Shown here: positions 3,075 to 42,787 of the stretch, piece by piece
How the letters are laid out: each line of letters starts with the position of its first letter
Position numbering within the stretch: position 1 is the first letter of the stretch
Virus record (IMG/VR): IMGVR_UViG_3300008954_000005
Span: 64,001 to 128,000 of that record
DNA length: 64,000 nt
Direction: 5' to 3' (one strand)
DNA from: a virus
Notes under the pieces: model-generated
Databases searched by the model: none
Seen by the model: the letters and a program-made list of their open reading frames with translations, nothing else
Told to the model about the DNA's origin: nothing
Made by a program: the position numbers and the translations under genes

Positions 3075-4718
3075 CTAACCTCTATCATGCTTATCATCCC
3101 CTGACGGGCTAATAATATCAGGTCTTGGGTGTTCTATCATAGACGCCAGAAAACAGTAGGTAATTGCGTGCAAAGTATCATCTGTTGTACCCGGTGTCCT
3201 ATTAATAATAGTCGTTCTTCGCGCCTCGTTGTACTCTGTAAATACAGATAAGAGGTCGCTTCCAAAGGGTGTTTCAAAATCTTCCCATTTAGGGAAGGCT
3301 AATTCGTCCTCACGATTAATTGCGTTAATAACCGCCATCAACGCCTCCGTCCTATTAACCATAAACCTATGGAGGCTTTTGTCGAAGTAGATTCTCTTAG
3401 CATTTACGTACTGATACCTCGCAACACGGGCAATCCCAAACTGCCTTATCAGCCGGTCATTACGGTCAAATCCACCCCCGTAGTCAACCCCAGCTATGCG
3501 AACTTCGAATCTATCCATCAGCTTGGCAATGTCGTTCATAAGGTTTTCTGGACTGCCGTCTTCACCCTCATACCGTCTACAGTAGATGATAGTAAAGATG
3601 CGGCCGATATAACACCCAGCAACAAGTACGGAATAAGTATTCTCTCCTGTACCCCAATCAATCCCTAGATAGACTTTTCGATTACGGCCCTTAACGAATT
3701 TAGTCGCGAACTCCAGTGTGTTTGGTCGTTCTTGATTACAGCACTTTATCAGAGATTCCTTGTTGATAGGTTTCTCACCAGAATCGTAACCAACGCCCAA
3801 AACCTCATTAAAAAACTGAGCGCGACTGTACCGTTTCCTTTTATCGAGAATATCGTCCCAACGCACCCAAGGAGCAATTAACTGTGGGATTCTGTACCCC
3901 TCAAAAGGCGTCGTAACCGGTGGGTGCTTCAGCCATTGGGGTGACCGCATGGACGCCCATTGAGCCCTTGGATGATCCGCATGTATGGCCCTCCCGCATT
4001 TTTTACAGATCAACCCCTGGGCACCAATGTTGTCTTCTCCCAGAACATTCCAAGTGTTACAGCCCTCACATGGAACAACCCACTCATTTTGGGTGCTGAA
4101 TTGGTTCCAATAGTAGCTGATGGTGTTGTCCAAGCTCTTCGGCGTACCGGAGTAGCGAAGAATCTTGAACGGGGAGTGCGACAACGCCTCCTCAATAATT
4201 GGGATGATGTCTGTAAGGATGTCCTGAATCTCATCCAACAAAAGCATGTCAGCAGAGATACCGCGCACGCGATCTGCGTGTAAAAAGGCATACCGCATAG
4301 TGATGTCTGAGCCTGTCACATACTTCTTGTACAGAACGTTGTTCTTGGTATTCGCTCCCTCTGCAAAAGTTTGTAGTGTGGGGGAGAGTTCTATAGGTGT
4401 CTGTATCCTATCCCTTGAGAATGTTTCAGTCTGCTGCTGAGTGGGGCTTACGAACAGCGACCTAAAGTGCCTTCTCAAAGTCGAGTATGTTAGCGTAATA
4501 TTCCCTAGGGTTGTGCTCTTCTCTACCTGTCGGCCACACTGAAGAAGCAGTCTCTGGGAAGGTGTGTCATAGATAGGGATCAGGTAACGCCTGCCTTTAA
4601 ACGAAAAATGCTCCAACTCTCCCAAGCTGGGCATATTGAAGAAAGATGATACAAACTCGCTAGGAAAGAGATTATTATCCCTCTCAAAAGCTGCTGATTG
4701 TTCATCGAGTAAAGACAT
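3075..4718 (-). CDS. terL: terminase large subunit (GpA-like)
   Basis: Walker A variant CGRQVEKST, Walker B LLLDEIQD, coupling motif SGTP, Zn ribbon CEGC...CKKC, nuclease motifs LGIDWG and DDTLH. ATG at 4718 preferred over TTG at 4724. Confidence 0.92.
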   Translation of the reverse strand: MSLLDEQSAAFERDNNLFPSEFVSSFFNMPSLGELEHFSFKGRRYLIPIYDTPSQRLLLQCGRQVEKSTTLGNITLTYSTLRRHFRSLFVSPTQQQTETFSRDRIQTPIELSPTLQTFAEGANTKNNVLYKKYVTGSDITMRYAFLHADRVRGISADMLLLDEIQDILTDIIPIIEEALSHSPFKILRYSGTPKSLDNTISYYWNQFSTQNEWVVPCEGCNTWNVLGEDNIGAQGLICKKCGRAIHADHPRAQWASMRSPQWLKHPPVTTPFEGYRIPQLIAPWVRWDDILDKRKRYSRAQFFNEVLGVGYDSGEKPINKESLIKCCNQERPNTLEFATKFVKGRNRKVYLGIDWGTGENTYSVLVAGCYIGRIFTIIYCRRYEGEDGSPENLMNDIAKLMDRFEVRIAGVDYGGGFDRNDRLIRQFGIARVARYQYVNAKRIYFDKSLHRFMVNRTEALMAVINAINREDELAFPKWEDFETPFGSDLLSVFTEYNEARRTTIINRTPGTTDDTLHAITYCFLASMIEHPRPDIISPSGDDKHDRG

Positions 4719-4950
4719 GATCAAAGATACCGTAACTAGTTTAGTGGGTTCCTTATCTAGGGCACTTGGAAACGACCTTGTTTCCTATAAAGAAGATGCC
4801 GAGAACACATACGTTCTTAAGCTGTGGCCCCCAATATCACAACATAATAAAAAGCTCTTAAAAGAGTTCATTGGTGAATACATACCGAGAGCCAGGGTCT
4901 CCATAAATACAAAAAGAGGGCTTGTGAAAATCACTCTGCGTCCTCGTTAA
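4717..4950 (+). CDS. small hypothetical protein (77 aa), antisense within the late region
   Basis: MIKDTVTSLVG...KITLRPR fills the gap between terminase and the next minus-strand gene; the terminase frame is closed upstream. Confidence 0.55.
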   Translation: MIKDTVTSLVGSLSRALGNDLVSYKEDAENTYVLKLWPPISQHNKKLLKEFIGEYIPRARVSINTKRGLVKITLRPR

Positions 4951-5203
4951 TATAGCTATCACACACAAAGTCTGCTCGCACGAACGTGCGGTACTCTGTA
5001 CACTCCCCATCCCCAGAATGGGCTCTGCCAGCCGAGTAGATGAACTGTTTACAGGTTACGCAGCGTTCATCAGCTTGCGCTAACCGCAGCCTGGGTGGCT
5101 GAGTGCTGGCTAGTTTGGCTTGGAGTTGGTCTAGAAGGCGATTTACCTCCAAATAATTTACTGAAGAACCCTTGTTTTGGGGCCTTTTGTTTCGGGTAAA
5201 CAT
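4931..5203 (-). CDS. small Cys4 protein, HiPIP-like signature (start uncertain)
   Basis: CVTCKQF-x10-GECTEYRTFVRADFVCDSY; preceded by KLAS; overlaps the 3' end of the SNF2 gene in another frame. Confidence 0.55.
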   Translation of the reverse strand: MFTRNKRPQNKGSSVNYLEVNRLLDQLQAKLASTQPPRLRLAQADERCVTCKQFIYSAGRAHSGDGECTEYRTFVRADFVCDSYINEDAE

Positions 5204-6857
5204 AACGCATCTTCCCTGTTGTGTTGTCTCTATACTTATAGATAAATTTAGTAGGCTTTTTAAAGGCTGTGTAGAAGTCCTTCTGCTGCTTGAACTTTCG
5301 CCCAGCAACTCCGTACATCCATTCGTCTGTGGTTTGGGGGGTCTTCTTACCCATCGCTCGACCAATAAATCCTGGTCTAGCTGCCTTGGGCACAGTACTT
5401 CTGTACCGTCGAACATCTACCGCCCGGTTCTCAACGGCACGGTGTTGCTGCCCACCGAGTCTACGGGCACGGGCTTCCGCCTGAAGAATCCGTTGCGGGT
5501 TGAAGTGCCCGTCCAACGCGTAAAACGCAGTAGAGTTCTTCAGGTCGAGGCCTTCCGCACCAGCACCGCTTAGGATGATTACTTTCTTCTTGCCTGCTTG
5601 GTAGTCCTTCACTCCCTGTTGTCTTGTCAGGGCAGTGACCTTGTTCTCACCAACGGTTGTTCCTTTGCCAACAAACACGGCATGATCGATACCGCGAGCT
5701 TTTAGGCCAGCAGATAGGACGTCCACACCACCACGTACCAAGTTGCTGTACAGGACAACCTTGTTGTCGGGCTTCTCTGTGAGATGCTGCGCCGTGTCAT
5801 CCAGTACCTTTTTAGCCTTTGGTGTCTGCTGAGCGGATTGCGCTGCAGTCACGTCTGATCTTCCGGTGTGCACAGAGTTAGCAACCTGTCGAGCCGCCGC
5901 GATCTGGGCGAAGATGAACTTCGCATCCTTGACGGTGATGTTCTTGTCTCTACGCATAAGCATCTCTTTAATCGCTGGATGCTTATCCAGAGCTAGCTGG
6001 TATAGATCGTACTGTGCGGGGGACATCTCCACGTCCACATTCCGCACATCCTTCCGGGGCATCGTTTTGCCCTTAAGATCACCCGTCTCAATGTAGTCTA
6101 TTCTCGGTTGTGTCCGGGCCTTTAGCTCCTCAACCCGCTGGTAGCCGCGAATCTTCTTCTTCCCACCACCAAAACCCTTTGCTGTCCCAACAGTCTTGGT
6201 GAACCTTCGTCTGAATTGCTGGGGCGTCATCTCTCGGTTGTTCTCGGAGATGGTCATCAACGAGGCAATTTCAGAAGGGCGGTTGTTGATCAAAGAGGCT
6301 GTCAGCCCCATGAAGTTGACCGCGTACCTTCGAGCCTCTACTGCCGCTTTAAACGTTGATGCGGATTCATTTCTAGTCTTGTGGAACTCATCTAAAATCA
6401 GAGTGTCAGCCCCGGTTCGCTCCATGAACCCTTTTGGGTCCTTCCGAAACTGGGCGTAGCTTATGATTGTGTAATCAGCGTTGCCCTCGCTACCTGGGCG
6501 TACGTAGCCGTCCTTCTTCCGAACTTCAGCAGGCGAGCCAACAATCTGAACGCTGCTAGTGGTGAACTTTCGAACACCGCCATCCGCAAAGTTGGCCCGT
6601 AAGCCAGAGGGAACAACTACTAGCGCCTTCTTTGCTTTCCCATCGTGACGTAGCTTCTCAAATCCGTAAATGCTTGTAGCGGTTTTCCCCGTGCCCATCT
6701 CGTGGGCGAGAATCATTTTTCCCTTATTTGCGTACAGACGCTCTATCGCTTTTGCTTGGTGCTCATACGGTTTAAACCACTCTTTAAGCGCGGGAATACC
6801 CGTACCGTGTTGCACTTCCTGAGCGACCTCGGCGGCGCATTTAAGGAAAAACCTCAC
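5070..6857 (-). CDS. SNF2/SWI2-family helicase/translocase
   Basis: PYEHQ, LAHEMGTGKT, VVVPSGL, ILDEFH, GLTAS, GAEGLDL, FNPQRILQAEARARRLG. Confidence 0.92.
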   Translation of the reverse strand: MRFFLKCAAEVAQEVQHGTGIPALKEWFKPYEHQAKAIERLYANKGKMILAHEMGTGKTATSIYGFEKLRHDGKAKKALVVVPSGLRANFADGGVRKFTTSSVQIVGSPAEVRKKDGYVRPGSEGNADYTIISYAQFRKDPKGFMERTGADTLILDEFHKTRNESASTFKAAVEARRYAVNFMGLTASLINNRPSEIASLMTISENNREMTPQQFRRRFTKTVGTAKGFGGGKKKIRGYQRVEELKARTQPRIDYIETGDLKGKTMPRKDVRNVDVEMSPAQYDLYQLALDKHPAIKEMLMRRDKNITVKDAKFIFAQIAAARQVANSVHTGRSDVTAAQSAQQTPKAKKVLDDTAQHLTEKPDNKVVLYSNLVRGGVDVLSAGLKARGIDHAVFVGKGTTVGENKVTALTRQQGVKDYQAGKKKVIILSGAGAEGLDLKNSTAFYALDGHFNPQRILQAEARARRLGGQQHRAVENRAVDVRRYRSTVPKAARPGFIGRAMGKKTPQTTDEWMYGVAGRKFKQQKDFYTAFKKPTKFIYKYRDNTTGKMRYVYPKQKAPKQGFFSKLFGGKSPSRPTPSQTSQHSATQAAVSAS

Positions 6858-11322: not shown

Positions 11323-12780
11323 TTACTTTTTAGCCTTTACTGTCTTAGACGCTACATCATCTTCAAACGTAACTGTCGCGCTAGGGAGGACGGGTCCGCT
11401 AGGACCAGCCGGGGTAGCGCATGAGAACTTGCTCTCTAGCCAAGTCTTTAAATCCTGCCAACGAACCACCCCTTGTAGTTCGTCACTGTTGGTTCCCAAC
11501 TGAATATTTGCCTCTCCCTGAATAAGGACATCGCCCTTAACCTGGAAATCCATCTCTTCCAGCACCTTGAATAATACTGATTTTACTTGAGCTTCAAACT
11601 CATTAGTGTCTAATAATTCAAGGATACTCTGCTTATTTTCCTTGGTATCTTCGCTCCCACCGTCACCACCGTAAACAACCTTGATACCTTTATTAACACG
11701 CGCATATAGTGTCTGGTCTATCTCAGCGTGTATATGCCCCTTTGTGAAAACAAGTGCATCCCCTTCTCGATTTAGTTGGAAGGCGTAGCAAACGGAATCC
11801 TTGGTCTCGGTGTTCGTATCCTTCTCGGGGTCATGGTTGTAGATGGTAAGGCTGAGGATGCCCTTGGACTCTTTTCTAATACCTTTAGCTTTGTGGCTAC
11901 CCGTTAACCGTACTGGCTGATCAACTCGATCCTTGGTGGCTTTGTGCCCCAAATAACCAAACTCATGTTCAGCATCCTCCTCGGTATCTAAGACCTCTGG
12001 AGTTAAACGACCAATACGAAGCTCTACAGTGTACTTGCCTTCCTTAACGTCCTCTTGGCACAAATCTTTTATGTTGTACCGAACCATCACCGGCGTCTCT
12101 GCTGCCGCGCTCAGAGCCTTGCTCTTATCGGCCTCCTCCAACAAATCAGAAGACAAGTAGCCTAGAACCTCTGTGGGCGTTTCGCCCTCAACTAGTTGTG
12201 CGTGGCCCCATTCAATCTCTCCAACGGGGCTGTAGGCTTGGTATCTCTGGAAGTAGTCGCGTACTAAATTCTCGATGGGCAGGTAGACGCGCTGCGCTAA
12301 CCCAGTAGCGCCGATTTGTACCATCCCACCACGCCGAACAATGACATGATTACCGTCAATAGCACCCATGTAAATGTCGCCGGGTTCTAGGTTCTCCCGC
12401 ATTGCCCGGAAGTTCGGCCCAGCATCAGCGGACTCTTCAATCAATTCTGCGCTTGGGCCGTCCAACTCAGCCATGTGCTCCGGGACAACGGCTGGCTGTG
12501 CGTTTATGATGAACGAGAGGATAAAGGACGTCCCATCGGCACACTCACACACATAACAGTGTGAGTTCACTTCCGGCATCCAGTACAACCCACCAACATG
12601 ATCTTGATGACAATACCCAGCAGCAAAAGGAACATCCACCAATGCCTTATGCGTGTAAATCGTCATCAAGTCACAAGTAAACTCTTGCACGTTCACACTC
12701 TGTACCAGAGCTAGGTGCACCTTCGCGGGCCTGTCAGCAAACCCAGGAGTTTGCCCCATACCATCTTGAAATTCAGACAT
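11323..12780 (-). CDS. baseplate central spike (gpV/gp5/VgrG-like)
   Basis: N-terminal OB-fold-like segment (LALVQSVNVQEFTCDL...GGLYWMPEVNSHCYV), C-terminal beta-strand repeats, tip motif CATPAGPSGP. Confidence 0.7.
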   Translation of the reverse strand: MSEFQDGMGQTPGFADRPAKVHLALVQSVNVQEFTCDLMTIYTHKALVDVPFAAGYCHQDHVGGLYWMPEVNSHCYVCECADGTSFILSFIINAQPAVVPEHMAELDGPSAELIEESADAGPNFRAMRENLEPGDIYMGAIDGNHVIVRRGGMVQIGATGLAQRVYLPIENLVRDYFQRYQAYSPVGEIEWGHAQLVEGETPTEVLGYLSSDLLEEADKSKALSAAAETPVMVRYNIKDLCQEDVKEGKYTVELRIGRLTPEVLDTEEDAEHEFGYLGHKATKDRVDQPVRLTGSHKAKGIRKESKGILSLTIYNHDPEKDTNTETKDSVCYAFQLNREGDALVFTKGHIHAEIDQTLYARVNKGIKVVYGGDGGSEDTKENKQSILELLDTNEFEAQVKSVLFKVLEEMDFQVKGDVLIQGEANIQLGTNSDELQGVVRWQDLKTWLESKFSCATPAGPSGPVLPSATVTFEDDVASKTVKAKK

Positions 12781-15700
12781 TAATAAGGGCCTCCGCTATC
12801 TTTAGGCTTACCGAATTCAGCGGAATAAGCGATGCCTGGGGCGGGGTGTGTTCCGTGAAGATCAGACTCCCATCCCTCATTCGCAGCCCTAATAAAGGTT
12901 TCTTTAAGTTTTCGGTACTGAAGCCTAGCGATCCAGTCTGTACTCTGATCCAGAGGAAGTGTCTCGATACCACGGAGCATCGGCTGCACTCTGATCGGGG
13001 CTTTCATTTTGCCAGAACGATTGAGGGCAGCAGCGTGTGATAAAGAGATGTAGTCATTCTTGATAAACGAGGAGTCTCCAGGGTCAGTGACCCGCCCGAG
13101 GTTGGTTACCGCCTTGGTGACCACCTCAATGTTCCTTCGTTTAATCCCTTCGCTCTTATACACCTTGTTGATCTCGTCAGCGATGTACGCCTGGACTGTG
13201 TCTACGTTGGTCTTTGCCAATAGGTCTCGGGGCTCAATTACACCACTTGAAATCTGCTGGCCCTTCCTAACCTTGTCCCCAACACCGATACTGATCGTTC
13301 GCCCAGCCGGAACATAGATGTCCTCGTTACCAATAGAGATATCAAAACCACCGACAGGGCTCTTAGTCACCTTGCTTACCTCAGCGGTAGCTGGAGAAAG
13401 TACTGCTGCGTTAGGTAGCGTTGCGGGCATCTTCAGAAGTTGGCTAATCCGGTCAATGCCACCAACGACACCCGCAGAAGACCCGGCCACACCGCCCGTA
13501 TGGAATGTCTTCATAGACAACTGTGTGCCGCGTTCCCCCAATGCGGTTCCGGCAATAAGCCCGATATTGGTCCCCACCTCAACAGGCCTTCCACCATCCA
13601 TGAGCCCATAGCAGTGAGAACACAGCCCCTTCTTGGACTCACATTTCATAGGCGATCTAGCCACAACTTTAGAGACCTTTGAGGCCTTTAGCTTAGAAAG
13701 CAGCGCAGGGGTTATGGCCGTACCTGCGGGGACCGTGGATCCCCCAGCCTTAAAGGCTTTAGCAGTAAACCGATCAACTAAATCTGAGTCGCCAATATCT
13801 AGGGCAATCCCCCGCTTCGTACCACAATTATTCTGTGTAACTACGTAGCTAATAGCCGTGTTGGCTATTTGTTTATTCAGTGCCCCCGGAACAGATACAG
13901 ACTGTACCTTCTCAATGAGGCCCTTACGCGCACCAGATGAAGCGACCCAGTAATCAGAAGAACGCAGACCTTCGGAATATGACCTGTCTACAGGCACAGG
14001 AATAACCCGACCGCTCGCATTCTCTAGAAGCATGGGTCCGATAAGCATCTGCTGTAGCTGCGACCAAGCGGGTTTGACTCCTGCGTTGTTCATAGCTCTG
14101 AGTTTGTTTCCATCTTTGTCTAGAATCTTCTTAGCTTCTGACGACAGGTCTTCTGTCACCTTGGTATACAGGTCGATAATTTGAGCTTCGGCGGCGCTAG
14201 GAGAGATGAGCTTCATCTTCTCCTTTTTCCTGATGGCTGTTTCCTTAGCCCGCGCAACTTTCATCCTGCTATTGCGAAGCTCTGTGAGAGTGTTGAAGTC
14301 ATCCAAATCAAACGAGAACCCGGTGTCGTACGCATGACCAAAGCCAAGATTCTTTATCTTGTCTGCTGTGGCTTGGAACTCTGCGGGGCTTTTCACAGCT
14401 ACTTGGCGCAAGATGTTTTGGAGGACACCCTTCCCCATAATCAGCTTAGGGTCTGTGAGGATTTCTTCAGATTGAACCTTTTTCGGCAAGGCATTATTGA
14501 ATAATATTCTTCCCGCCGTTGTTCGTAATCCCCCAACAGACACAACATCAGTAGCTAGAATATCTCCAGCCTCTGCGGCGGCTAATGCTTCTTTAGCATC
14601 GGCAAACTTAGTTCTCGTCTTCTTCCCCATTTGGGTAAGCAGGTAGAGCCCTAACTGGCCCTCTAGGCTCGGCTGGTACATCACCCTCCCAGTAGCAGGG
14701 TTGAACAGGTTCTTTGAGGGCAGCATTTTATGCGCCTCATCGACGGCCTCTTGGGATACGGGCACAAAGATGGCCATTGTGTCCCCGTCAAAGTCAGCAT
14801 TGAACCCACCGGTCACCAGAGGGTGGATGTGGATGGACTTCTCATCGTGAAGTTTTGGCTTAAAGGCCATGATCCCAAACTTATGTAGAACTGGGTCACG
14901 CTTAAAAAGTACCGGGCGCTTGTTAACAGCAACCTCAAGGGCTCTATTCGCCAAAGAACTATTCTTCTCGATTTCTTCCCTAGCCTTGAGGGGCGTATAC
15001 CCCATGTTTACAAGCTCCTTCACCACAAAGGGCCTGTAGATCTTCATAGCCCCCTTCCTCGGAAGACCTAACTCGTCGAGGTGCAGATCCATATCGGGAA
15101 CAATGACCGACCGCATGGAGATGTCCTGCTTACGATCCAGAATTCGTTTGTGGAAAAAGCTCTGCTTTGGCGATTGACGGCCAGAGAGAATGGTGAGTAT
15201 TCCGGGGGGTCTTGCTTGACCATCCATAGTCATGGCCCCCTCTGTAGGGGTAGACACGCCCATCAAAGCATCCACAGCATTGTATAGGTCGCCCCGGAGC
15301 TTCGCGGTTGCGGACTCGGGCAAAACCCCATCGGCCTCCTTTAGCTTTTGGTTGAGCATGGCGATATCGCGGTACAACATGTTTGTACCATCGATGTTTA
15401 GATCCCCGCCCTCCATAGCGGTAATGGGCCTAAAGATAGGGGGCAGGACTGGCACATTGCTTATTCCGTACGCCTTGTCAGCGGAAAGGCCCTCCTTCTT
15501 GAGCATCAGCAGGTACTTAATCTTCTTGTTCAGCTTATCTAGCTCACCCCGTCTAGCGGTCTTTATCTGTTCCTTAGCCGAGGCAAGCTCTTCATCCACA
15601 TTTAGTGCAGCTAGGGCAGCAATGATTCCTTGAGGACCGACTATGTCTTTATGCGTTCCCGCAATAGCACTGTCGTACTCTTTCCCAGTCAGTCCCAGCA

Positions 15701-18700
15701 AAGACCGAACACCCTTTTCAAACATGGGGTTCGGCATAGAGGTTCCAAGAGCGATGTGCCCCCAATGATTACCGCCTGGGCCACCGGTCACGTCCTCATC
15801 AAATAGACCGCCCTTTTCTGGCTTTAGATCCTTGCCGCGAATTACGCGACTACCATCGGTAATCTCACCGTTAGAGGTCTCAAGAATTTGTTTATCCGTG
15901 AGAGGTGAGACAACAAGACCATTCCCCTCCTTCTCCACGTTAAGACCAAGAGCCCCCATGTACGCCAAGAATTTTTCATATGCGAACGATGGTTTTGGGT
16001 TGGGGAGGATCTGGCCTGTTTGGACTGCTGTCCAAATCTCATCCTGTTGCTTATCGCTTTTGTAGGTCAGTGCGTCCCGAATATTGGCTGTAGCTCCGTG
16101 GGCAAGCATGGCGTAAAGACCTAGTTCGCCAAACCGCTGTGCGCCTCCGGTTTCCCCACCGCCCTTGGGAACCAAGTTTGCGTCGTAGTCGTGTCCGTAA
16201 CCATGTGCCCTAGCACGGAGCTTCTTATCAATCTGATGTAGCAGCTTAAGCGTGTACTGCTTACCTACCAGTACTTGCCCCAGACTCTTCCCTGTGACCG
16301 GATCGAACAACTCCGTGGTTTCAGAGACGCCCTCTGCGGCAAGAACCTTCTTTACCTGCTCTTGGTAGCCGACTTCACGGTCGTGGGCCTTAATCGTTAT
16401 TTGCTTAGGGCCTTCTTTTGTCTGGATAGTGCGGGTGTGCTCCTTAACCCGGACAATCTTTTTCCCTCCGCTAGCCTGAAAGTTATCGACTGCGTAAGGC
16501 TCGCCCCGCTTGTCAGCAACCTTAGCCAAACTGGTCTCTAGGACCTGCCCTAGATTGATTCGGCCCGGAACACCAGAAGGATTCAGAATCAACTGGAGTG
16601 GGTTCCCTTCCGCATCTCTGGGCATCTCCTCATCAGGTATTACGGCAGTAATAACACCTTTATTGCCATGCCTACCTGTGAGTTTATCTCCTACGTCTGC
16701 GGGTTCTTCGGTCTTTACGTAGACCATTATCTCTCGACCATTACGAACAACATCCGTAACGACTCCGGCGTAAGGCTTCTCCCAGGTGACAGAGCGGTCC
16801 TTGAAGGGGCGTACCAGGGATTTATGGATTCCCTTCAACATCGCCTGCTCTTTTGAGGGCTCTGTCTTTTGGAGAACCGTCATCAAAGTGTCGCCTGGGT
16901 CAACCCGCTGGCCCTTCTTAATGACACCATCCTCATCCAGCTTGGCAGCGTTATCGTCCGTTACTGAGCCTGGGAAATTTGCCCGGAACTTGCGTAGCCC
17001 AACCTGCATATTTTTTTCAACGTACGCCCTATTTTTGTGCAGATGCTCGCTAGTCAGCTTCTTTGACGCCGTTTCAGAGATGACGATGCCGTCCTCAAAC
17101 ACCAAACCTTTGTAGGGGATGTAGCCAACCCTAAGGTTCGTGCCCATCGACAGCGTCCCGTCTTTTGTGAAGTTGGTGTCCGCGAGTGTCTGGCCAGCTT
17201 TGACGGTGTCCCCCTTCTTAACCAAGGGGGTGCTGCTGACAAAGGCCTTCTTGTCGTTCAGGGGAAAGTTGTCGTAGAGGGGCATCTCTACCTTGCTACC
17301 GTCCTTCGCCTGTAGAACGATTTTGGTGGCCCCAACAGACAGAACAGTCCCAGAGATTGGGCTGTTGTGACTAGTGAAGGAACCTACAATGTTTTCCCAC
17401 GTTTTAAACCGTTTGCTCGGGTTGCCGGAGACTACCTGCACAAGTGGTTGTTCTCGATCTTTTAGGGCTACCGCTTGTTCCATGTGGCGGGTAGCCATTC
17501 CAGCGCGATTAGCCTGATCCGTAGGGAGGAACGGGATCAGATTTGCTGTGATGGAGAACATGCCTTTGGGGGACCGAAGGATGTAATCGACCTCATTAGG
17601 CGCAACCTTCTCTGGATCCCCACCGTCTTTTCGGACAACCGTTACTAAGCTGTCAACGGCCTTAGGCTTCTTTCCAGAAAAGTCGTACTGGTCCGGGAAA
17701 GCGATGGCGGCATTAGCTAGGTCTGCTGGGCTTTTATCCACGTACGCCCCAGACTTGGTGTCGTACACAGTGATTAACGGCGTCGTCCCATCCTTCTTAA
17801 CACCCAAAGCAAGATGCCCGCTGATACCAGAACGCTTGCCCTCTGGTGTGTGCACCGGATCGATAAACCCTAGGAAGCTAGAGTCAATAAGCTTTGCATC
17901 ATCTGAAACAGCCTGCTCATTAGAAATACCACCCTGCCCCATAATGGTCGTTCGTAGGAACCCACCAATCATATCTACCGGGTTAACTTGGCTTGTTTGC
18001 TGGGACAGCGACGTTGACGTAAAGAAGGTTTTGATAGGGATGTTGAAGACATCCGGTGTAACGATGGCGCGAACGCTATCCTTCCTATCGATATTGTTCC
18101 CTAGCTTATACTGGATTCTTCTAGCTGAATTACCAATCCGCTCGGGAATGTGGTTGTCAATGGACCAAAGCTCCTTAAACCGAAGGGAGTCCCGATTATC
18201 AACCTCAGCCTCCCCCCTATTAATGGCTAATAACTTTCTAGAAGAGGCTAGCAGCGCACCACCGGAGACTTTATCGAAGCCTTCACCCAGGGTAATCGCT
18301 GTTGTATCTTTGAGTAACGCTGTTTTGTCGTACGCTTCTTTGACGATTGCCGCAGCCTCAGTATCGTTTGCTGGGGCGGCACCGCGTACAAGAGCCTTGG
18401 CGAGCTTAACGACCTCCCCCCGCTTTTTATCAGAGACGCTCCGTGCGTATAGCTCAGCCCCCCAAGCAGCACGGATGTCCTCATCCGGAATTCCCAAAGC
18501 TTGTAGAACGGGCAGTAGTTGAACGTTTGACGTTCCATACCCCATTAAGAATCTTCGTCTTGCGGGGTCGAATCCCAAACGGAAACCCCGCCCAGCCGCT
18601 AGGTTGAACTGGCTCTCAAGCTCTCCGTTGGCTTTACGTCTGGCGTACACCCCGGATTTTAGCCGCCACTGGTTGTCTACCTGATACTCCGTACCATCGA

Positions 18701-19013
18701 CAATGTAGCTATATCTTCTTGTGATTTTCGGGACAGCGGCAACTTTAACCTTAGCCACCTTATCTATGACTTTGCCGGTCTCGTTATCGACTAACTCAAA
18801 GTCACCATAGACTCCCTGAGCCCATGTTCGTCCACGTAATCTAGCTTTTTTCTGCGAAGGAATATCATCTAAATCAGTATCGCCCGTGGTGTAGATATTA
18901 CGAGCTACTAATGTTTGCTTCTTGCCTACTAGTGGAAAAAAACTATTTATTTTTTCTACGGTCCCGTCTTCGAGAGCTTTCATAACTCTCTGGGGATCTA
19001 GAACGTTTGCCAT
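12780..19013 (-). CDS. rpoBC: DNA-directed RNA polymerase, fused beta-beta' single polypeptide
   Basis: beta motifs DPVHTPEG, FEDGIVISE, GDKLTGRHGNKGVI, NPSGVPGRINLGQ, GGAQRFGE; then beta' motifs WGHI, VPVLPPIFRP, RDPVLH, catalytic NADFDGD (14781-14801), bridge helix GARKG, Zn site RSPMKC..LCSHCYG, trigger loop GERGTQLSMKTFHTGG. Confidence 0.97.
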   Translation of the reverse strand: MANVLDPQRVMKALEDGTVEKINSFFPLVGKKQTLVARNIYTTGDTDLDDIPSQKKARLRGRTWAQGVYGDFELVDNETGKVIDKVAKVKVAAVPKITRRYSYIVDGTEYQVDNQWRLKSGVYARRKANGELESQFNLAAGRGFRLGFDPARRRFLMGYGTSNVQLLPVLQALGIPDEDIRAAWGAELYARSVSDKKRGEVVKLAKALVRGAAPANDTEAAAIVKEAYDKTALLKDTTAITLGEGFDKVSGGALLASSRKLLAINRGEAEVDNRDSLRFKELWSIDNHIPERIGNSARRIQYKLGNNIDRKDSVRAIVTPDVFNIPIKTFFTSTSLSQQTSQVNPVDMIGGFLRTTIMGQGGISNEQAVSDDAKLIDSSFLGFIDPVHTPEGKRSGISGHLALGVKKDGTTPLITVYDTKSGAYVDKSPADLANAAIAFPDQYDFSGKKPKAVDSLVTVVRKDGGDPEKVAPNEVDYILRSPKGMFSITANLIPFLPTDQANRAGMATRHMEQAVALKDREQPLVQVVSGNPSKRFKTWENIVGSFTSHNSPISGTVLSVGATKIVLQAKDGSKVEMPLYDNFPLNDKKAFVSSTPLVKKGDTVKAGQTLADTNFTKDGTLSMGTNLRVGYIPYKGLVFEDGIVISETASKKLTSEHLHKNRAYVEKNMQVGLRKFRANFPGSVTDDNAAKLDEDGVIKKGQRVDPGDTLMTVLQKTEPSKEQAMLKGIHKSLVRPFKDRSVTWEKPYAGVVTDVVRNGREIMVYVKTEEPADVGDKLTGRHGNKGVITAVIPDEEMPRDAEGNPLQLILNPSGVPGRINLGQVLETSLAKVADKRGEPYAVDNFQASGGKKIVRVKEHTRTIQTKEGPKQITIKAHDREVGYQEQVKKVLAAEGVSETTELFDPVTGKSLGQVLVGKQYTLKLLHQIDKKLRARAHGYGHDYDANLVPKGGGETGGAQRFGELGLYAMLAHGATANIRDALTYKSDKQQDEIWTAVQTGQILPNPKPSFAYEKFLAYMGALGLNVEKEGNGLVVSPLTDKQILETSNGEITDGSRVIRGKDLKPEKGGLFDEDVTGGPGGNHWGHIALGTSMPNPMFEKGVRSLLGLTGKEYDSAIAGTHKDIVGPQGIIAALAALNVDEELASAKEQIKTARRGELDKLNKKIKYLLMLKKEGLSADKAYGISNVPVLPPIFRPITAMEGGDLNIDGTNMLYRDIAMLNQKLKEADGVLPESATAKLRGDLYNAVDALMGVSTPTEGAMTMDGQARPPGILTILSGRQSPKQSFFHKRILDRKQDISMRSVIVPDMDLHLDELGLPRKGAMKIYRPFVVKELVNMGYTPLKAREEIEKNSSLANRALEVAVNKRPVLFKRDPVLHKFGIMAFKPKLHDEKSIHIHPLVTGGFNADFDGDTMAIFVPVSQEAVDEAHKMLPSKNLFNPATGRVMYQPSLEGQLGLYLLTQMGKKTRTKFADAKEALAAAEAGDILATDVVSVGGLRTTAGRILFNNALPKKVQSEEILTDPKLIMGKGVLQNILRQVAVKSPAEFQATADKIKNLGFGHAYDTGFSFDLDDFNTLTELRNSRMKVARAKETAIRKKEKMKLISPSAAEAQIIDLYTKVTEDLSSEAKKILDKDGNKLRAMNNAGVKPAWSQLQQMLIGPMLLENASGRVIPVPVDRSYSEGLRSSDYWVASSGARKGLIEKVQSVSVPGALNKQIANTAISYVVTQNNCGTKRGIALDIGDSDLVDRFTAKAFKAGGSTVPAGTAITPALLSKLKASKVSKVVARSPMKCESKKGLCSHCYGLMDGGRPVEVGTNIGLIAGTALGERGTQLSMKTFHTGGVAGSSAGVVGGIDRISQLLKMPATLPNAAVLSPATAEVSKVTKSPVGGFDISIGNEDIYVPAGRTISIGVGDKVRKGQQISSGVIEPRDLLAKTNVDTVQAYIADEINKVYKSEGIKRRNIEVVTKAVTNLGRVTDPGDSSFIKNDYISLSHAAALNRSGKMKAPIRVQPMLRGIETLPLDQSTDWIARLQYRKLKETFIRAANEGWESDLHGTHPAPGIAYSAEFGKPKDSGGPY

Positions 19014-19042: not shown

Positions 19043-19062
19043 TTTTAGGTATAAGAACTATG
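19043..19062 (+). promoter_or_regulatory. putative phage-RNAP promoter, copy 1 (TTTTAGGTATAAGAACTATG)
   Basis: 14 of 20 positions identical to the copies at 23119 and 42768; intergenic; upstream of a plus-strand gene. Confidence 0.7.
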
Positions 19063-19166: not shown

Positions 19167-19445
19167 ATGCGAACTATTCGCGTCAGCCGTAGAATCATCG
19201 CTGATGATCGTCGGATAGCGATGTCTACTCGCGCCCCCAAACCTATTGCTTGTGACGTTGCCGGAATCTGGTGCTACGAACCCAAGAATTGCGGGGCGTG
19301 TGCTCATTTCATTGAGAACACTGGTTGCGTTAGATGGGTTTGCTCTGCATGTGTCGTTAAAGCTGATAAGGCCTCCCCGTACTATCAACGGGGCGTTTGC
19401 GACAGATGCGATAACCCCTCGGCAATACTAATTCTTGTCCATTAA
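19167..19445 (+). CDS. small Cys-rich putative zinc-binding protein
   Basis: 92 aa with 9 Cys including CGAC, CSAC and CDRC; fills the gap between RNAP and portal; its stop overlaps the portal stop (TTAA). Confidence 0.65.
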   Translation: MRTIRVSRRIIADDRRIAMSTRAPKPIACDVAGIWCYEPKNCGACAHFIENTGCVRWVCSACVVKADKASPYYQRGVCDRCDNPSAILILVH

Positions 19446-21445
19446 ACCTGCGCTCTATCTGGGTCTGCGCGTGAAGGTAGTTTCTCCGGTAGGGGATTCA
19501 TGGACTTCACGCCAGCCCCAGATAGGGCATTATTCACCAACATGTAGAGATCAGGGTTGCTTGCACGGATTTGGGACATGGCCCGATACCTGTCCACCTC
19601 ATTCATCTTTTTTAGCTCTGAGGTGAGTTGCTTGGCCTGTGCAAACATATCTACCATGCCGCCGTTTTGTTGAGCCTGAACCGGACTCTGCTCCACCCCT
19701 TGGACAGGCCCGCCTTCTTGTTGCGGCGGCTGTTGTTGCTGTTGCTCCATTCCGGGAGGCGGTGCCCCCTGTTGTTGAGCGGCGGCTGGATCACCGCCGC
19801 CTTGCTGTGGCGGAGCGCCTCCTTGTTGCGGAGCACCACCGCCCTGTTGAGCGGCTGCTTGTTGCTGGGCCATTTCCGGGAATGCCTGTTGCAACTCCTG
19901 CTGAGACTCTGCCTGTAGGAATTGAGCCTGTCCCTGATACCGAGTATTGATGAGCATTGCTTCGCCCTGAGCGCTCGCCTGTGCGATCATTTGCTCACGC
20001 TGCTGCTTATTCATCTTCGTCAGTTCAGTGCTGATAAGTTCCTGCTCGCTCTCAAAGTTAAAGTCTCGGGACTCCAAGAAGGTTCTGCGACTAATCATGT
20101 TTGAGCCAGCAAGCTGCATATCAAACTGTGCTCGCTGGATGTCGTCAGCCATCTTGAATGGCTTGAACTTCAGTTTGATTTTAGGAAGATCCAAGAAAGC
20201 GCACACACGATCACGGATAAACTCAACGAGACGAAGCATATCCTGCCGATTTCCCAAAAACTCATTCTCTAGCGCCCTAAGATTCACTGAGGCCCCTGAG
20301 TACTGCTGCTCTCCGTAAAAGAACCCAGTGGGAACACCCATTCCAGCGATTATTTGATCATTATAAATTCGGAGTTCTTGGTGGAGGAGTAGTGACCGCC
20401 CTTGCCCGCCAATCATCTGGTAGCCAACGGGGACAGGCATCACCGGGATATGGTTGTTGTCCTGCCGCCACTTCTTAATCTGACTAGAGACCTCTTCCTG
20501 CCAATCCTGAAGATTGATGTGTGCGTAAGGGTTGTTCCCGTCTGTAGTTACCTGTGGAAACATGACCCGCATGGGGACGATGTGCTCCATGGCGACAGCT
20601 TCCTGAGCTTTCCTCAAGACCTGTAGAAAGAAAATATCCTTAAGCACTGGGAGGATGAGTGGAGCACCCCAGCCACTATCGGAGGGGGCTCTTGAGATTG
20701 ATGCACGTTTCGCGTGAAACAGTTTAGAGCTTTCGAGAAGGATGCTCTTCTTCTTCCGCATTGCCTCGATAAAAGCCTGCGGCACCGTTTCGATGATTGA
20801 GGGTTTACCGAGGGTGATATCGTTTTTGATATAGCGAGGAACCTCGTAGTAATACTCGCTTTTCCCGGTAATTTCGTTGTAGTTGATTTTGATGTTCTTC
20901 GGATTCCAACGAATAAGCCGAATCTGTAGGCCAGCCTTTACTGGCTCATCCTTTACACCAGCAATCCCTTCGTGCCCGCACGAGTCGCAAGTGATGTGGA
21001 ATTGATAGCTCTTCCACTTGTACTTGATCTTCCTTGCCTCGTAGTCTGCCTTGCACTCCTTACAAGTAAGAACCTTTGTAAAGGGGAAGGATACGGAGAC
21101 AAAAGCATTGCCGTACGTGTACCTATCTAGATTCGTTTCTACGAGGAACTGCCGCAGCAAAAACTGCTTTTCGAAGATCTCTTTGTATCGCTCTGTGACG
21201 CCTTCGTTATCGTCCTCATAGATAAGGTCGGTAATGGCGTAAGTTGCGAGCTTCTGCGTAATGCTGCTGACCAGGGGATTAGTAAGCTGGTAGTACAAGC
21301 ACCAGTCAAAAGTATCTTTGATCGTTTTGGGTAGATAGTTTTGTGCAACGTCAAAAAAGGGACTCGGGTAGAACTTTTCTGGTCTGCCCACCGTGGATGC
21401 GCGGGCTCTACCGCCTGAAACGTAACGACCAATATTACTAGACAT
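19442..21445 (-). CDS. portal protein with Zn-ribbon insertion and Q/P/G-rich tail
   Basis: Portal-like pattern (YTYGNAFV, LIRWNP..I, GWGAPLILP, IIAGMGVP, GASVNLRALEN); CKEC...CDSC insertion; lies in the head module. Confidence 0.75.
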   Translation of the reverse strand: MSSNIGRYVSGGRARASTVGRPEKFYPSPFFDVAQNYLPKTIKDTFDWCLYYQLTNPLVSSITQKLATYAITDLIYEDDNEGVTERYKEIFEKQFLLRQFLVETNLDRYTYGNAFVSVSFPFTKVLTCKECKADYEARKIKYKWKSYQFHITCDSCGHEGIAGVKDEPVKAGLQIRLIRWNPKNIKINYNEITGKSEYYYEVPRYIKNDITLGKPSIIETVPQAFIEAMRKKKSILLESSKLFHAKRASISRAPSDSGWGAPLILPVLKDIFFLQVLRKAQEAVAMEHIVPMRVMFPQVTTDGNNPYAHINLQDWQEEVSSQIKKWRQDNNHIPVMPVPVGYQMIGGQGRSLLLHQELRIYNDQIIAGMGVPTGFFYGEQQYSGASVNLRALENEFLGNRQDMLRLVEFIRDRVCAFLDLPKIKLKFKPFKMADDIQRAQFDMQLAGSNMISRRTFLESRDFNFESEQELISTELTKMNKQQREQMIAQASAQGEAMLINTRYQGQAQFLQAESQQELQQAFPEMAQQQAAAQQGGGAPQQGGAPPQQGGGDPAAAQQQGAPPPGMEQQQQQPPQQEGGPVQGVEQSPVQAQQNGGMVDMFAQAKQLTSELKKMNEVDRYRAMSQIRASNPDLYMLVNNALSGAGVKSMNPLPEKLPSRADPDRAQV
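19606..19617 (+). terminator. putative sequence-specific termination signal TCTTTTTTAGCT, copy 1
   Basis: Exact 12-mer shared with the terminators at 41628 and 43548; 160 nt after the 19167-19445 gene; antisense within the portal CDS. Confidence 0.5.
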
Positions 21446-23118: not shown

Positions 23119-23138
23119 TTTTTGGTATAAGCACTTTG
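23119..23138 (+). promoter_or_regulatory. putative phage-RNAP promoter, copy 2 (TTTTTGGTATAAGCACTTTG)
   Basis: At the strand switch heading the replication block; matches the motifs at 19043 and 42768. Confidence 0.7.
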
Positions 23139-42767: not shown

Positions 42768-42787
42768 TTTTAGGGATAAGAATAGTG
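42768..42787 (+). promoter_or_regulatory. putative phage-RNAP promoter, copy 3 (TTTTAGGGATAAGAATAGTG)
   Basis: Matches the motifs at 19043 and 23119; heads a two-gene plus-strand unit. Confidence 0.7.

What the first reader, a model, noticed from the sequence alone, without database searches (positions are those of the whole stretch)
12780..19013. Minimal single-chain beta-beta' RNAP (2077 aa) with a very short fusion junction
The beta C-terminus (…AYEKFLAYMGALGLNVEK, cf. E. coli SFNVLLKEIRSLGINIEL) runs through about 4 residues into the beta' N-terminus (LVVSPLTDKQILETSNGEI…KPEKGGLF) near 15920-15945. All catalytic elements are intact, yet the chain is about 670 aa shorter than E. coli beta plus beta' (1342+1407). 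It is far more bacterial-like than the phiKZ or crAss enzymes. The gene sits between portal and baseplate spike, consistent with late expression and packaging (inference). The fusion may remove the need for the alpha assembly scaffold (inference).
Basis: partly seen in the sequence, partly recalled or inferred. Interest (0 to 1): 0.78.

Follow-up and report, generated by a model that had tools for sequence, protein, structure and literature searches.

The report
Single-chain phage RNA polymerase, own sigma
An uncultured ~180-kb marine phage encodes both large catalytic subunits of a bacterial-type RNA polymerase as one intact 2,077-residue protein. It belongs to a large, essentially undescribed phage family that carries its own sigma factor and, judging from a cultured relative, probably packs the enzyme into the virus particle.

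Summary
Window 12780-19013 (-) is one open 2077-codon gene with beta domains followed by beta' domains and an intact catalytic centre. The last beta strand and the first beta' strand are joined by a two-residue turn (G1030-N1031).

It is not an artefact or a captured bacterial gene. More than 100 protein clusters and about 30 IMG/VR loci share the architecture, mostly on 130-200 kb phage contigs. In trees the family is one clade, apart from all sampled bacteria (including a fused Paceibacterota rpoBC) and from the published mReC phage RNAPs. It scores far below NCBI's cut-offs for Helicobacter- and Wolbachia-type fused RpoBC.

Full fusion and loss of the beta' zinc-binding domain are family-wide. 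The Arash-type split of beta' looks secondary. The phage has one sigma70-family gene, whose family recurs on contigs of the same lengths as RNAP-bearing ones. The sigma-docking residues and the rifampicin pocket have diverged.

In the cultured relative Salmonella phage Arash, polymerase and sigma were detected in virions. Virion delivery here, and independence from host alpha, are inferences only. The portal and spike neighbours are supported.

The scan met the same family in several other genomes, and two earlier follow-ups reached similar conclusions.

The parts
12780..19013 (-). Fused beta-beta' RNA polymerase gene, 2077 codons plus stop (protein P0001)
   Evidence: ORF and translation; Pfam Rpb2_3/6/7 and Rpb1_1/2/3/5; PDB beta' hits at 1e-116
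15924..19013 (-). Beta module, residues 1-1030. It starts at the equivalent of E. coli beta residue ~37 and lacks SI1 and SI2
   Evidence: Alignment with E. coli and the family; NCBIfam rpoB match over 254-1027
15903..15944 (-). Fusion junction, residues 1024-1037. It is modelled as a beta-hairpin: strand 1024-1029, turn G1030-N1031, strand 1032-1037
   Evidence: AF2 model of residues 740-1500 (pLDDT ~90 at the junction, overall 84.8, pTM 0.74); no indel at the junction in 22 of 23 family rows
12783..15923 (-). Beta' module, residues 1031-2077. It lacks E. coli beta' residues 1-17, the zinc-binding domain, SI3 and the C-terminal tail
15771..15788 (-). TGGPGG (residues 1076-1081), standing where bacteria carry the ~32-aa Cys4 beta' zinc-binding domain
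   Evidence: Alignments: the domain is absent in all 23 family rows and present in the sampled bacterial rows shown
15276..15401 (-). Beta' clamp helices (residues 1205-1246), the predicted docking site for the phage sigma
   Evidence: Interface residues; the positions of bacterial R275, R278, L282 and E295 are substituted in the family
14781..14801 (-). NADFDGD catalytic loop (residues 1405-1411)
   Evidence: D1407, D1409 and D1411 are invariant in all 23 family rows and all 16 bacterial rows
17940..18026 (-). Counterpart of rifampicin-binding cluster I (residues 330-358), strongly diverged
   Evidence: D516 to S, H526 to G, S531 to T; elsewhere V146 to D, I572 to S, R687 to E. Bacteria are conserved at these positions
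16809..16865 (-). Beta flap-tip helix region (residues ~717-735), retained but diverged
   Evidence: segment alignment
13611..13826 (-). Second beta' zinc site (C1730, C1791, C1798, C1801), retained
11323..12780 (-). 485-aa gp5/VgrG-like central spike homologue. Its ATG overlaps the RNAP stop codon (TAATG)
   Evidence: overlap; a homologue lies directly downstream of the RNAP in ~20 related loci; the family profile hits the T4 gp5 spike at E 5e-4; 8 of 18 members hit Pfam Phage_base_V
19442..21445 (-). Portal protein, 667 aa
   Evidence: 34% identity to the Arash portal gp204, E 9e-94; weak SPP1_portal match
19167..19445 (+). Conserved Cys-rich small ORF on the opposite strand, between the portal stop and the RNAP start
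   Evidence: Amino-acid-level conservation with locus L007
5070..6857 (-). SNF2-type helicase, homologue of Arash gp217
   Evidence: Pfam; 27% identity, E 2e-34; gp217 was detected in Arash virions (PMC10585845)
3075..4724 (-). Large terminase
   Evidence: Pfam GpA_ATPase; Arash TerL homologue, E 9e-40

Best explanation
The gene encodes the complete catalytic core of a bacterial-type (two double-psi-barrel) RNA polymerase as one polypeptide. The last strand of beta and the first strand of beta' are closed into a hairpin by a two-residue turn, so the two modules are always present 1:1 and pre-tethered. The enzyme belongs to a large clade of ~150-200 kb, mostly marine phages whose cultured relatives are Salmonella phage Arash and Vibrio phages D69, D148 and D181. 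Full fusion and loss of the beta' zinc-binding domain appear ancestral in this clade. I propose that it initiates with the phage's own sigma70-family factor (regions 2-4, encoded ~70 kb away), docked on diverged clamp helices and flap tip. That would make a holoenzyme orthogonal to the host's and probably insensitive to rifampicin. By analogy with Arash, core and sigma would be made late with the structural proteins, packed into the virion, and delivered with the DNA to transcribe phage genes without host RNAP. Shown here: the architecture, catalytic integrity, family distribution, phylogenetic placement, presence of the sigma gene, and divergence of the interfaces. Inferred: sigma use, virion delivery, rifampicin insensitivity, and any independence from host alpha and omega.
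For: Architecture and intact active site. The junction is a confident hairpin in the AF2 model and is length-invariant across the family. Family size: more than 100 clusters of 2030-2117 aa at 42-85% identity on 130-200 kb contigs, and about 30 IMG/VR loci with one ORF spanning residues 1-2070. Trees: the family is one side of a branch with SH-aLRT 100, apart from 26 and 16 bacterial rows and from mReC-like phage RNAPs; split forms nest inside fused ones. The phage is of the Arash lineage: homologues of TerL, portal, MCP, helicase gp217, gp13, gp222, gp233 and sigma gp10 are present. Sigma: a 299-aa protein matches Pfam Sigma70_r3 at 27.2 bits (cut-off 25.3) and RpoS at 4e-5 in the PDB, and its family alignment shows sigma regions 2-4. 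Members of the sigma and RNAP families come from contigs of identical lengths in 13 cases, taken to be the same contigs. It is the only sigma-like gene in the record. Complex model of beta' 1031-1480 with sigma 60-299: score 0.71, best of 3 controls 0.00. That mark was reached by 58 of 80 solved complexes and 2 of 110 mismatched pairs; the runs agree in at least 52% of contacts and the partner pLDDT is at least 68. My own alignments were used, so the counts hold only roughly. Sigma-clamp-helix complexes are solved, so the pass may reflect likeness rather than binding. The interface is the clamp helices 1205-1246 against sigma 85-129. Virion: in Arash the beta-beta'N protein gp206 had the most spectra (3516); gp216, sigma gp10 and helicase gp217 were also detected (PMC10585845). 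No second RNAP and no alpha or omega gene was found in the 155.7-kb record.
Against: Nothing is measured for this phage: there is no expression, virion or activity data. The Arash authors themselves note that abundant enzymes might contaminate purified particles, and Arash is only ~31% identical. The record is 87% complete, so a missing alpha-like or second RNAP gene cannot be excluded. There is no N-terminal extension on the RNAP that could serve as a capsid-targeting signal; residue 1 aligns to E. coli beta residue ~37. The sigma could instead redirect host RNAP, as in phages that have sigma factors but no RNAP. The naturally fused Helicobacter enzyme is, to my knowledge, still assembled with alpha, so fusion alone does not show alpha independence. 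Rifampicin insensitivity is read from substitutions only.
Confidence: 0.6

Rival explanations
1. It is a non-virion phage polymerase. It is made after infection and used only for middle or late transcription, while early genes are read by host RNAP. Its detection in Arash particles would then reflect abundance or carry-over.
For: The Arash authors raise this possibility themselves. The RNAP has no recognisable targeting extension. A few sigma70-like matches exist in the region, including one upstream of the RNAP gene.
Against: gp206 had more spectra in Arash virions than the major capsid protein (3516 against 1333), and sigma and the helicase were detected with it. The gene sits between the portal and spike genes and is translationally coupled to the spike. 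There is only one RNAP set in the genome. The sigma70-like matches are no more frequent than in shuffled sequence.
Confidence: 0.25
2. It is a hybrid enzyme. The fused chain still needs host alpha2 (and perhaps omega) to fold or function, as cellular fused RpoBC enzymes do, so fusion serves stoichiometry rather than alpha independence. This is compatible with either timing model.
For: Overall bacterial-type architecture with conserved beta and beta' core regions. The phage has no replacement scaffold gene that I could recognise.
Against: According to reviews, phiKZ/AR9-type phage enzymes work without alpha and omega (PMC13282480). The sigma-docking surfaces here have diverged from positions that are invariant in bacteria, which suggests host-partner contacts in general were free to drift. 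If the enzyme is delivered by the virion, it would have to find host alpha after ejection.
Confidence: 0.35
3. It is a cellular rpoBC: bacterial DNA mis-binned as viral, or a recent capture from a bacterium with a fused gene.
For: Two family members are filed under an 'Alteromonadaceae bacterium' MAG. Fused rpoBC does exist in cells: NCBIfam NF007172 and NF011417, and a Paceibacterota MAG found here.
Against: The gene is flanked by portal, spike, terminase and capsid genes in a 155.7-kb virus record. Identity to any sampled bacterium is at most 32%. It lies in a clade separate from all sampled bacteria, with support 100. It scores below every NCBIfam cut-off.
Confidence: 0.01

Closest known systems
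RNA polymerase of Salmonella phage Arash (gp206 + gp216, with sigma gp10) and of Vibrio phages D69, D148 and D181
   Same: Same clade (support 100). Identical beta/beta' junction and identical loss of the zinc-binding domain. Same position just downstream of the portal gene. Homologous sigma, helicase, terminase, portal and capsid.
   Different: About 30% identity. In those phages beta' is cut into two genes at P0001 ~1485-1497, giving beta-beta'N of ~1525 aa and beta'C of ~606 aa. Here the whole enzyme is one chain. The Arash sigma lacks the ~65-aa N-terminal extension. The published annotation calls gp206 simply 'beta subunit' and does not mention a fusion.
Bacterial RNAP core (beta + beta'; E. 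coli, Thermus, Bacillus)
   Same: Same domain order and catalytic residues. Clamp helices, flap tip, bridge helix, trigger loop and second zinc site are retained. About 27-32% identity.
   Different: One chain instead of two. No zinc-binding domain. No lineage-specific inserts. Diverged rifampicin pocket and sigma-contact residues. Scores below the rpoB and rpoC equivalog cut-offs. No alpha or omega gene in the genome.
Naturally fused cellular RpoBC (Helicobacter type NF007172, Wolbachia type NF011417; a Paceibacterota MAG found here)
   Same: Beta and beta' in one polypeptide, in the same order.
   Different: Independent events. The Paceibacterota fusion groups with unfused CPR bacteria and keeps the zinc-binding segment and a short linker. 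The NCBIfam fused models score about a tenth of their cut-offs. Those proteins are ~2840-2890 aa.
mReC phage RNAPs (Weinheimer & Aylward 2020, PMC7481178)
   Same: Phage-encoded, cellular-like beta and beta' recognisable by sequence, on large phage contigs, forming a deep branch.
   Different: mReC-like loci carry two separate genes in the order beta' then beta, at 25-28% identity. They form a separate clade, and bacteria and the fused family group together against it. The fused-family contig from the same metagenome is not in their tables, and no protein of six typical family lengths (2031 and 2086-2091 aa) is listed.
phiKZ/AR9 virion and non-virion multisubunit RNAPs; crAss-like gp66 and YonO single-chain two-barrel RNAPs; N4 vRNAP
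   Same: Functional analogy: phage-encoded transcription independent of the host, in several cases delivered by the virion.
   Different: phiKZ/AR9 enzymes are split into 4-5 pieces, are far more divergent and have no sigma70-family factor (PMC7598289, PMC13282480). crAss and YonO enzymes are barely alignable with cellular subunits (PMC7481178). N4 vRNAP is of the T7 type.

Membership tests
Two-barrel multisubunit-type RNAP (beta/Rpb2 plus beta'/Rpb1) | Rpb2 and Rpb1 domain sets in the canonical order | tested here: met
   Rpb2_3, Rpb2_6, Rpb1_2, Rpb1_3 and Rpb1_5 score above their gathering cut-offs. Rpb1_1 (34.5 against 39.7) and Rpb2_7 (27.3 against 32.1) fall just below.
Two-barrel multisubunit-type RNAP (beta/Rpb2 plus beta'/Rpb1) | Catalytic NADFDGD triad, the two beta lysines and the trigger-loop histidine | tested here: met
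   all are invariant in the 23 family rows and the 16 bacterial rows.
Bacterial rpoB / rpoC equivalogs (NCBIfam NF001616, TIGR02386) | Score at or above the curated cut-off | tested here: not met
   408.5 against 896 for rpoB, and 544.2 against 963.5 for rpoC.
Cellular fused RpoBC (NF007172 Helicobacter type, NF011417 Wolbachia type) | Score at or above the curated cut-off, or nesting with a cellular fused lineage | tested here: not met
   546.7 against 5372, and 501.1 against 4632. The fused Paceibacterota row groups with CPR bacteria, not with the phage family. Actual Helicobacter and Wolbachia sequences could not be fetched.
mReC (Weinheimer & Aylward) | Separate beta and beta' genes forming the published deep clade | tested here: not met
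   different gene order and a separate clade; the family is absent from the held supplementary tables.
Arash-like phage lineage | Shared RNAP clade plus homologous terminase, portal, capsid, sigma and helicase | tested here: met
Sigma70-dependent holoenzyme | A cognate sigma70-family factor together with clamp-helix and flap-tip docking elements | tested here: inconclusive
   A sigma-like gene is present and the docking elements are present but diverged. The complex model scores 0.71 against a best control of 0.00, which supports binding but does not show it.
Virion-packaged RNAP | The protein is present inside purified particles and active before new protein synthesis | not testable with these tools
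   The only evidence is the virion proteome of Arash (PMC10585845).

The most novel reading that the evidence does not exclude
A complete cellular-type transcription machine reduced to two polypeptides, a single-chain beta-beta' core and a dedicated sigma. It would need no alpha or omega, would be carried in the virion and injected, and would be orthogonal to the host enzyme and to rifampicin. It would come from a lineage that branches beside, not inside, all sampled bacterial RNAPs.
Probability: 0.3. Interest if true: 0.85.

Novelty: new variant of a known kind. Interest (0 to 1): 0.62.

Why it matters
If the enzyme works as proposed, it is the smallest known natural cellular-type RNAP holoenzyme: about 230 kDa of core in one chain, plus a 33-kDa sigma. 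That would make it a convenient object for structural and single-molecule work, and a candidate orthogonal transcription module. It also gives a natural test of what alpha, omega and the beta' zinc-binding domain are really needed for. It would add a fourth solution to virion-delivered transcription, beside N4, phiKZ and crAss. The family is abundant in marine metagenomes, and its cultured members (Arash, Vibrio D69-type phages) make every claim testable. Its position beside the bacterial clade bears on the debate about the origin of phage RNAPs.

Tried and rejected
- Megablast of the gene against phage records found nothing.
- PHROGs gave nothing for the neighbouring genes.
- The window's own spike-like protein gave nothing in Pfam, PHROGs, tblastn against phages or single-sequence PDB search. 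Only the family-level tests worked.
- The AF2 model of that protein was too poor to use (pLDDT 55.5), so no fold search was run on it.
- Own-genome searches for Sigma70_r2, the Gp23 capsid, RNA_pol_L, RNA_pol_A_bac and Rpb6/omega found nothing. The record is 87% complete, so absence is not proven.
- mReC membership was considered and rejected.
- The sigma70-type promoter and terminator scan around the gene was no better than shuffled sequence.
- Three full-text searches for a described phage beta-beta' fusion of this kind found none. The library holds open-access papers only.
- No RNA holder was listed among sequencing runs, and read laying was not used.
It held no Helicobacter or Wolbachia, and NCBIfam models were used in their place.
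- Foldseek of the junction model returned only ordinary beta' chains and no fused chain.
- A capsid-targeting motif at the RNAP N-terminus was considered and dropped, because that segment is homologous to bacterial beta residues ~37-60.
- The trees are unrooted quick searches with SH-aLRT support only. They cannot tell whether the family is sister to bacteria or a fast-evolving offshoot.
Full report
**Observation**

The window holds a single open reading frame at 12780..19013 on the minus strand. It is 2077 codons long, and its ATG is preceded by GGAGG and a 6-nt spacer. Pfam places Rpb2 domains 3, 6 and 7 at residues 340-996 and Rpb1 domains 1, 2, 3 and 5 at residues 1141-1863 of the same chain. 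The best PDB sequence matches are bacterial beta' chains (E ~1e-116).

A fragment spanning the junction aligns to bacterial beta up to E. coli residue 1340 of 1342 at P0001 ~1029. Beta' homology starts a few residues later.

**Why the chain is short**

A family-guided alignment with E. coli shows no insertion of 12 residues or more, only deletions:
- Beta: residues 1-36, SI1, 388-403, SI2 and 1158-1179.
- Beta': residues 1-17, 68-99 (the Cys4 zinc-binding domain), 127-176, 551-567, 704-717, SI3 and the C-terminal tail.

About 416 of the 672 missing residues are E. coli lineage-specific inserts, so 'minimal' is partly a matter of the yardstick. The real peculiarity is that the zinc-binding domain is replaced by TGGPGG.

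The following are all retained:
- the catalytic residues, invariant in the family and in bacteria: beta K777, K785, R503, R818 and beta' D1407, D1409, D1411, R1372, H1838;
- the bridge helix and an insert-free trigger loop;
- the second zinc site;
- the clamp helices and the flap tip.

**Genome context**

The window is bases 64001-128000 of a 155,722-bp IMG/VR virus record estimated to be 87% complete. Near-identical DNA occurs in marine and seawater metagenomes from two studies, one of which may be the source of the record.

The closest isolates are Salmonella phage Arash and Vibrio phages D69, D148 and D181. In these phages a ~1525-aa protein covers beta plus the N-terminal half of beta', and a ~606-aa protein covers the rest.

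The window's genome has homologues of these Arash proteins:
- TerL (window 3075-4724);
- the portal (19442-21445; 34% identity, E 9e-94);
- helicase gp217 (5070-6857);
- the major capsid protein, gp13, gp222 and gp233;
- the sigma factor gp10 (outside the window, genome 153082-153960).

**A large family, not a one-off**

A search of 5.8 billion proteins returned more than 100 clusters of 2030-2117 aa. They are 42-85% identical over the full length and mostly lie on 130-200 kb contigs. Many more are lengthened by inteins or LAGLIDADG endonucleases.

An IMG/VR scan with ORF parsing found about 30 loci with one ORF covering residues 1-2070 (2021-3008 aa). At least seven loci carry the Arash-type split at P0001 ~1485-1497. 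A more distant set has separate genes in the order beta' then beta, at 25-28% identity.

**Relation to bacteria and to known phage RNAPs**

All are 27-32% identical.

I built two trees of concatenated beta+beta' (IQ-TREE, LG+C20 PMSF, quick search).
- First tree (41 rows, 1973 columns): the 15 phage rows lie on one side of a branch with SH-aLRT 100 and a long stem. All 26 bacterial rows lie on the other side.
- Second tree (46 rows, 1829 columns): three clades, each with support 100. These are the mReC-like phages (7 rows), bacteria (16) and the fused family (23). Bacteria and the fused family group together against the mReC-like set.

One bacterial row, a Paceibacterota MAG, turned out to have rpoB and rpoC in a single 2284-codon frame. 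It groups with unfused CPR bacteria and keeps the zinc-binding segment, so it is an independent fusion.

NCBIfam models of the Helicobacter-type and Wolbachia-type fused proteins score 547 and 501 bits against cut-offs of 5372 and 4632. The ordinary rpoB and rpoC models also fall below their cut-offs. The caveats are that the trees are unrooted and that Helicobacter and Wolbachia sequences themselves could not be fetched.

The mReC paper (PMC7481178) lists two separate proteins per contig. It includes the contig behind my distant locus L140. It does not include the fused-family contig from the same metagenome, nor any protein of six typical family lengths that I searched for, 2031 and 2086-2091 aa. 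This family is therefore not the published mReC set.

**Evolution within the family**

The junction has the same length in 22 of 23 family rows, and the basal L123 has ten extra residues. The zinc-binding domain is missing in all 23. The split (Arash-type) forms make a clade with support 99, nested among fully fused rows, and the fused L123 and L100 branch near the base. Full fusion therefore looks ancestral, and the beta' fission secondary.

**Structure of the junction**

I ran AlphaFold2 on residues 740-1500 with a 29-row family alignment. It gave mean pLDDT 84.8 and pTM 0.74. The model has a strand at 1024-1029, a two-residue turn (G1030-N1031) and a strand at 1032-1037, with pLDDT about 90. 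The TGGPGG segment is also confident. The fusion is thus modelled as a closed beta-hairpin, not a flexible tether. Foldseek finds ordinary bacterial beta' chains and no fused chain.

**Partners**

The record has no detectable second RNAP, alpha or omega.

It has exactly one sigma-like gene, encoding 299 aa. Its evidence:
- Pfam Sigma70_r3 at 27.2 bits, above the 25.3 cut-off;
- RpoS at 4e-5 in the PDB;
- weak hits to sigma70-family models in NCBIfam;
- a family alignment showing regions 2.1-2.4, 3 and 4, plus a conserved ~65-aa N-terminal extension.

Members of the sigma family come from contigs of exactly the same lengths as RNAP-bearing contigs in 13 cases. I take these to be the same contigs.

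Positions that are invariant in the sampled bacteria and that I take, from memory of the literature, to contact sigma are substituted across the family. These are beta' R275, R278, L282 and E295, and beta L901, F906 and K909. This fits a co-evolved, host-orthogonal pair.

I modelled the complex of beta' 1031-1480 with sigma 60-299.
- It scored 0.71, and the best of 3 controls scored 0.00.
- That mark was reached by 58 of 80 solved complexes and by 2 of 110 mismatched pairs.
- The runs agree in at least 52% of contacts, and the partner pLDDT is at least 68.
- My own alignments were used, so the calibration counts hold only roughly.
- The interface is the textbook one: clamp helices 1205-1246 against sigma 85-129. 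The pass may therefore reflect likeness to solved holoenzymes, and it supports binding without showing it.

**Rifampicin pocket**

Positions that are conserved in bacteria are changed: D516 to S, H526 to G, S531 to T, I572 to S, R687 to E and V146 to D. They vary across the family. This predicts insensitivity to rifampicin, but it is an inference only.

**Neighbours and expression**

The upstream neighbour is the portal gene.

The downstream 485-aa gene starts on the RNAP stop codon (TAATG). Its own sequence matches nothing. However, its N-terminal domain is conserved directly downstream of the RNAP in about 20 related loci. A profile of these proteins hits the T4 gp5 central spike and VgrG (best E 5e-4). 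Of 18 members, 8 match Pfam Phage_base_V, and others match Gp5_C, Gp5_trimer_C or DUF2345.

Between the portal stop and the RNAP start lies a conserved Cys-rich ORF on the opposite strand. The RNAP gene is therefore not simply the next cistron after the portal gene.

The only experimental evidence bearing on packaging is the Arash virion proteome (PMC10585845). There gp206 had the most spectra (3516), and gp216, sigma gp10 and helicase gp217 were also present. The authors caution that abundant enzymes might be carried over into purified particles.

**Mechanism proposed**

A single-chain core ensures 1:1 stoichiometry and proximity of the two barrels. This would be an advantage for an enzyme delivered in a few copies. 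It would pair with a phage sigma on diverged docking surfaces and transcribe phage DNA independently of host RNAP.

My confidence in each step:
- real fused, catalytically competent core: about 0.97;
- use of the phage sigma: about 0.75;
- virion delivery: about 0.55;
- independence from host alpha and omega: about 0.4.

**Novelty**

I found no paper describing this fusion. The Arash paper annotates the subunits without comment.

The same scan flagged the family in several other genomes. Two earlier follow-ups reached similar conclusions.

- the hairpin model of the junction;
- the separation from mReC;
- the independent CPR fusion;
- the polarity of fusion against split;
- the diverged sigma-docking and rifampicin positions;
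- the family-level identification of the spike.

Noticed in passing
window 19167-19445 (+): A 92-codon Cys-rich ORF lies on the strand opposite to the portal and RNAP genes, in the 428-bp gap between them. It is conserved at amino-acid level in a 77%-related phage (L007), so it is probably a real small zinc-binding protein. Gene callers left this gap empty.
   Followed up: partly
window 19043-19062, 23119-23138, 42768-42787 (+); genome 4434 and 39151 (+): The motif TTTTAGGTATAAGAAC (3 mismatches or fewer) occurs 5 times in the genome, all on the + strand, against 1.25 expected from shuffles. The copy at 19043 is conserved in L007 and precedes the Cys-rich ORF. It looks like an extended -10-type phage promoter.
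   Followed up: partly
L019:163-7014 (DATJQA010000074.1, Candidatus Paceibacterota MAG): A CPR bacterium has rpoB and rpoC in one 2284-codon open frame with a short linker. It groups with unfused CPR bacteria, so this is a cellular fusion independent of the phage one. I did not check it for assembly error.
   Followed up: partly
L001 (Arash), L002 (Vibrio D69), L115, L117, L124, L130, L138: The Arash-type beta' split falls at P0001 ~1485-1497. This is the same place as the cyanobacterial rpoC1/rpoC2 boundary: the rpoC1_cyan model ends at 1492 and rpoC2_cyan starts at ~1542. In Vibrio D181 and D148 a homing endonuclease gene is annotated within the matched RNAP region, which hints that endonuclease insertion caused the fission.
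   Followed up: no
proteins P0029-P0121; L101, L104, L110, L120, L125, L141: Many family members are 2400-3260 aa because of intein or LAGLIDADG/Hom_end insertions in the RNAP gene. The window's copy has none.
   Followed up: no
L132-L147: mReC-like phage loci carry beta' upstream of beta, the reverse of the bacterial order. Some keep the Cys4 zinc-binding domain (L132, L136, L140) and others have lost it.
   Followed up: partly
genome 153082-153960 (-), = L005:7080-7979; alignment A3: The phage sigma family has a conserved ~65-aa N-terminal extension (NPVxDFLKYA ... AHTRR ... acidic linker). The 234-aa Arash sigma lacks it. Another reader suggested a capsid-targeting or cleavage signal, which I did not test.
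   Followed up: no
L113:3499-8964: In one IMG/VR relative the RNAP frame is broken into three ORFs (187, 603 and 1030 aa). This could be a pseudogene, sequencing errors or recoding.
   Followed up: no
proteins P0017, P0018, P0157: RNAP and sigma family members are filed under an 'Alteromonadaceae bacterium' MAG. These are either phage contigs binned with the host or a hint at the host group.
   Followed up: no
window 43561-52212 (-): A 2883-aa ORF, and neighbours of 1532 and 998 aa, have no Pfam match. They are presumably giant virion or tail proteins.
   Followed up: no
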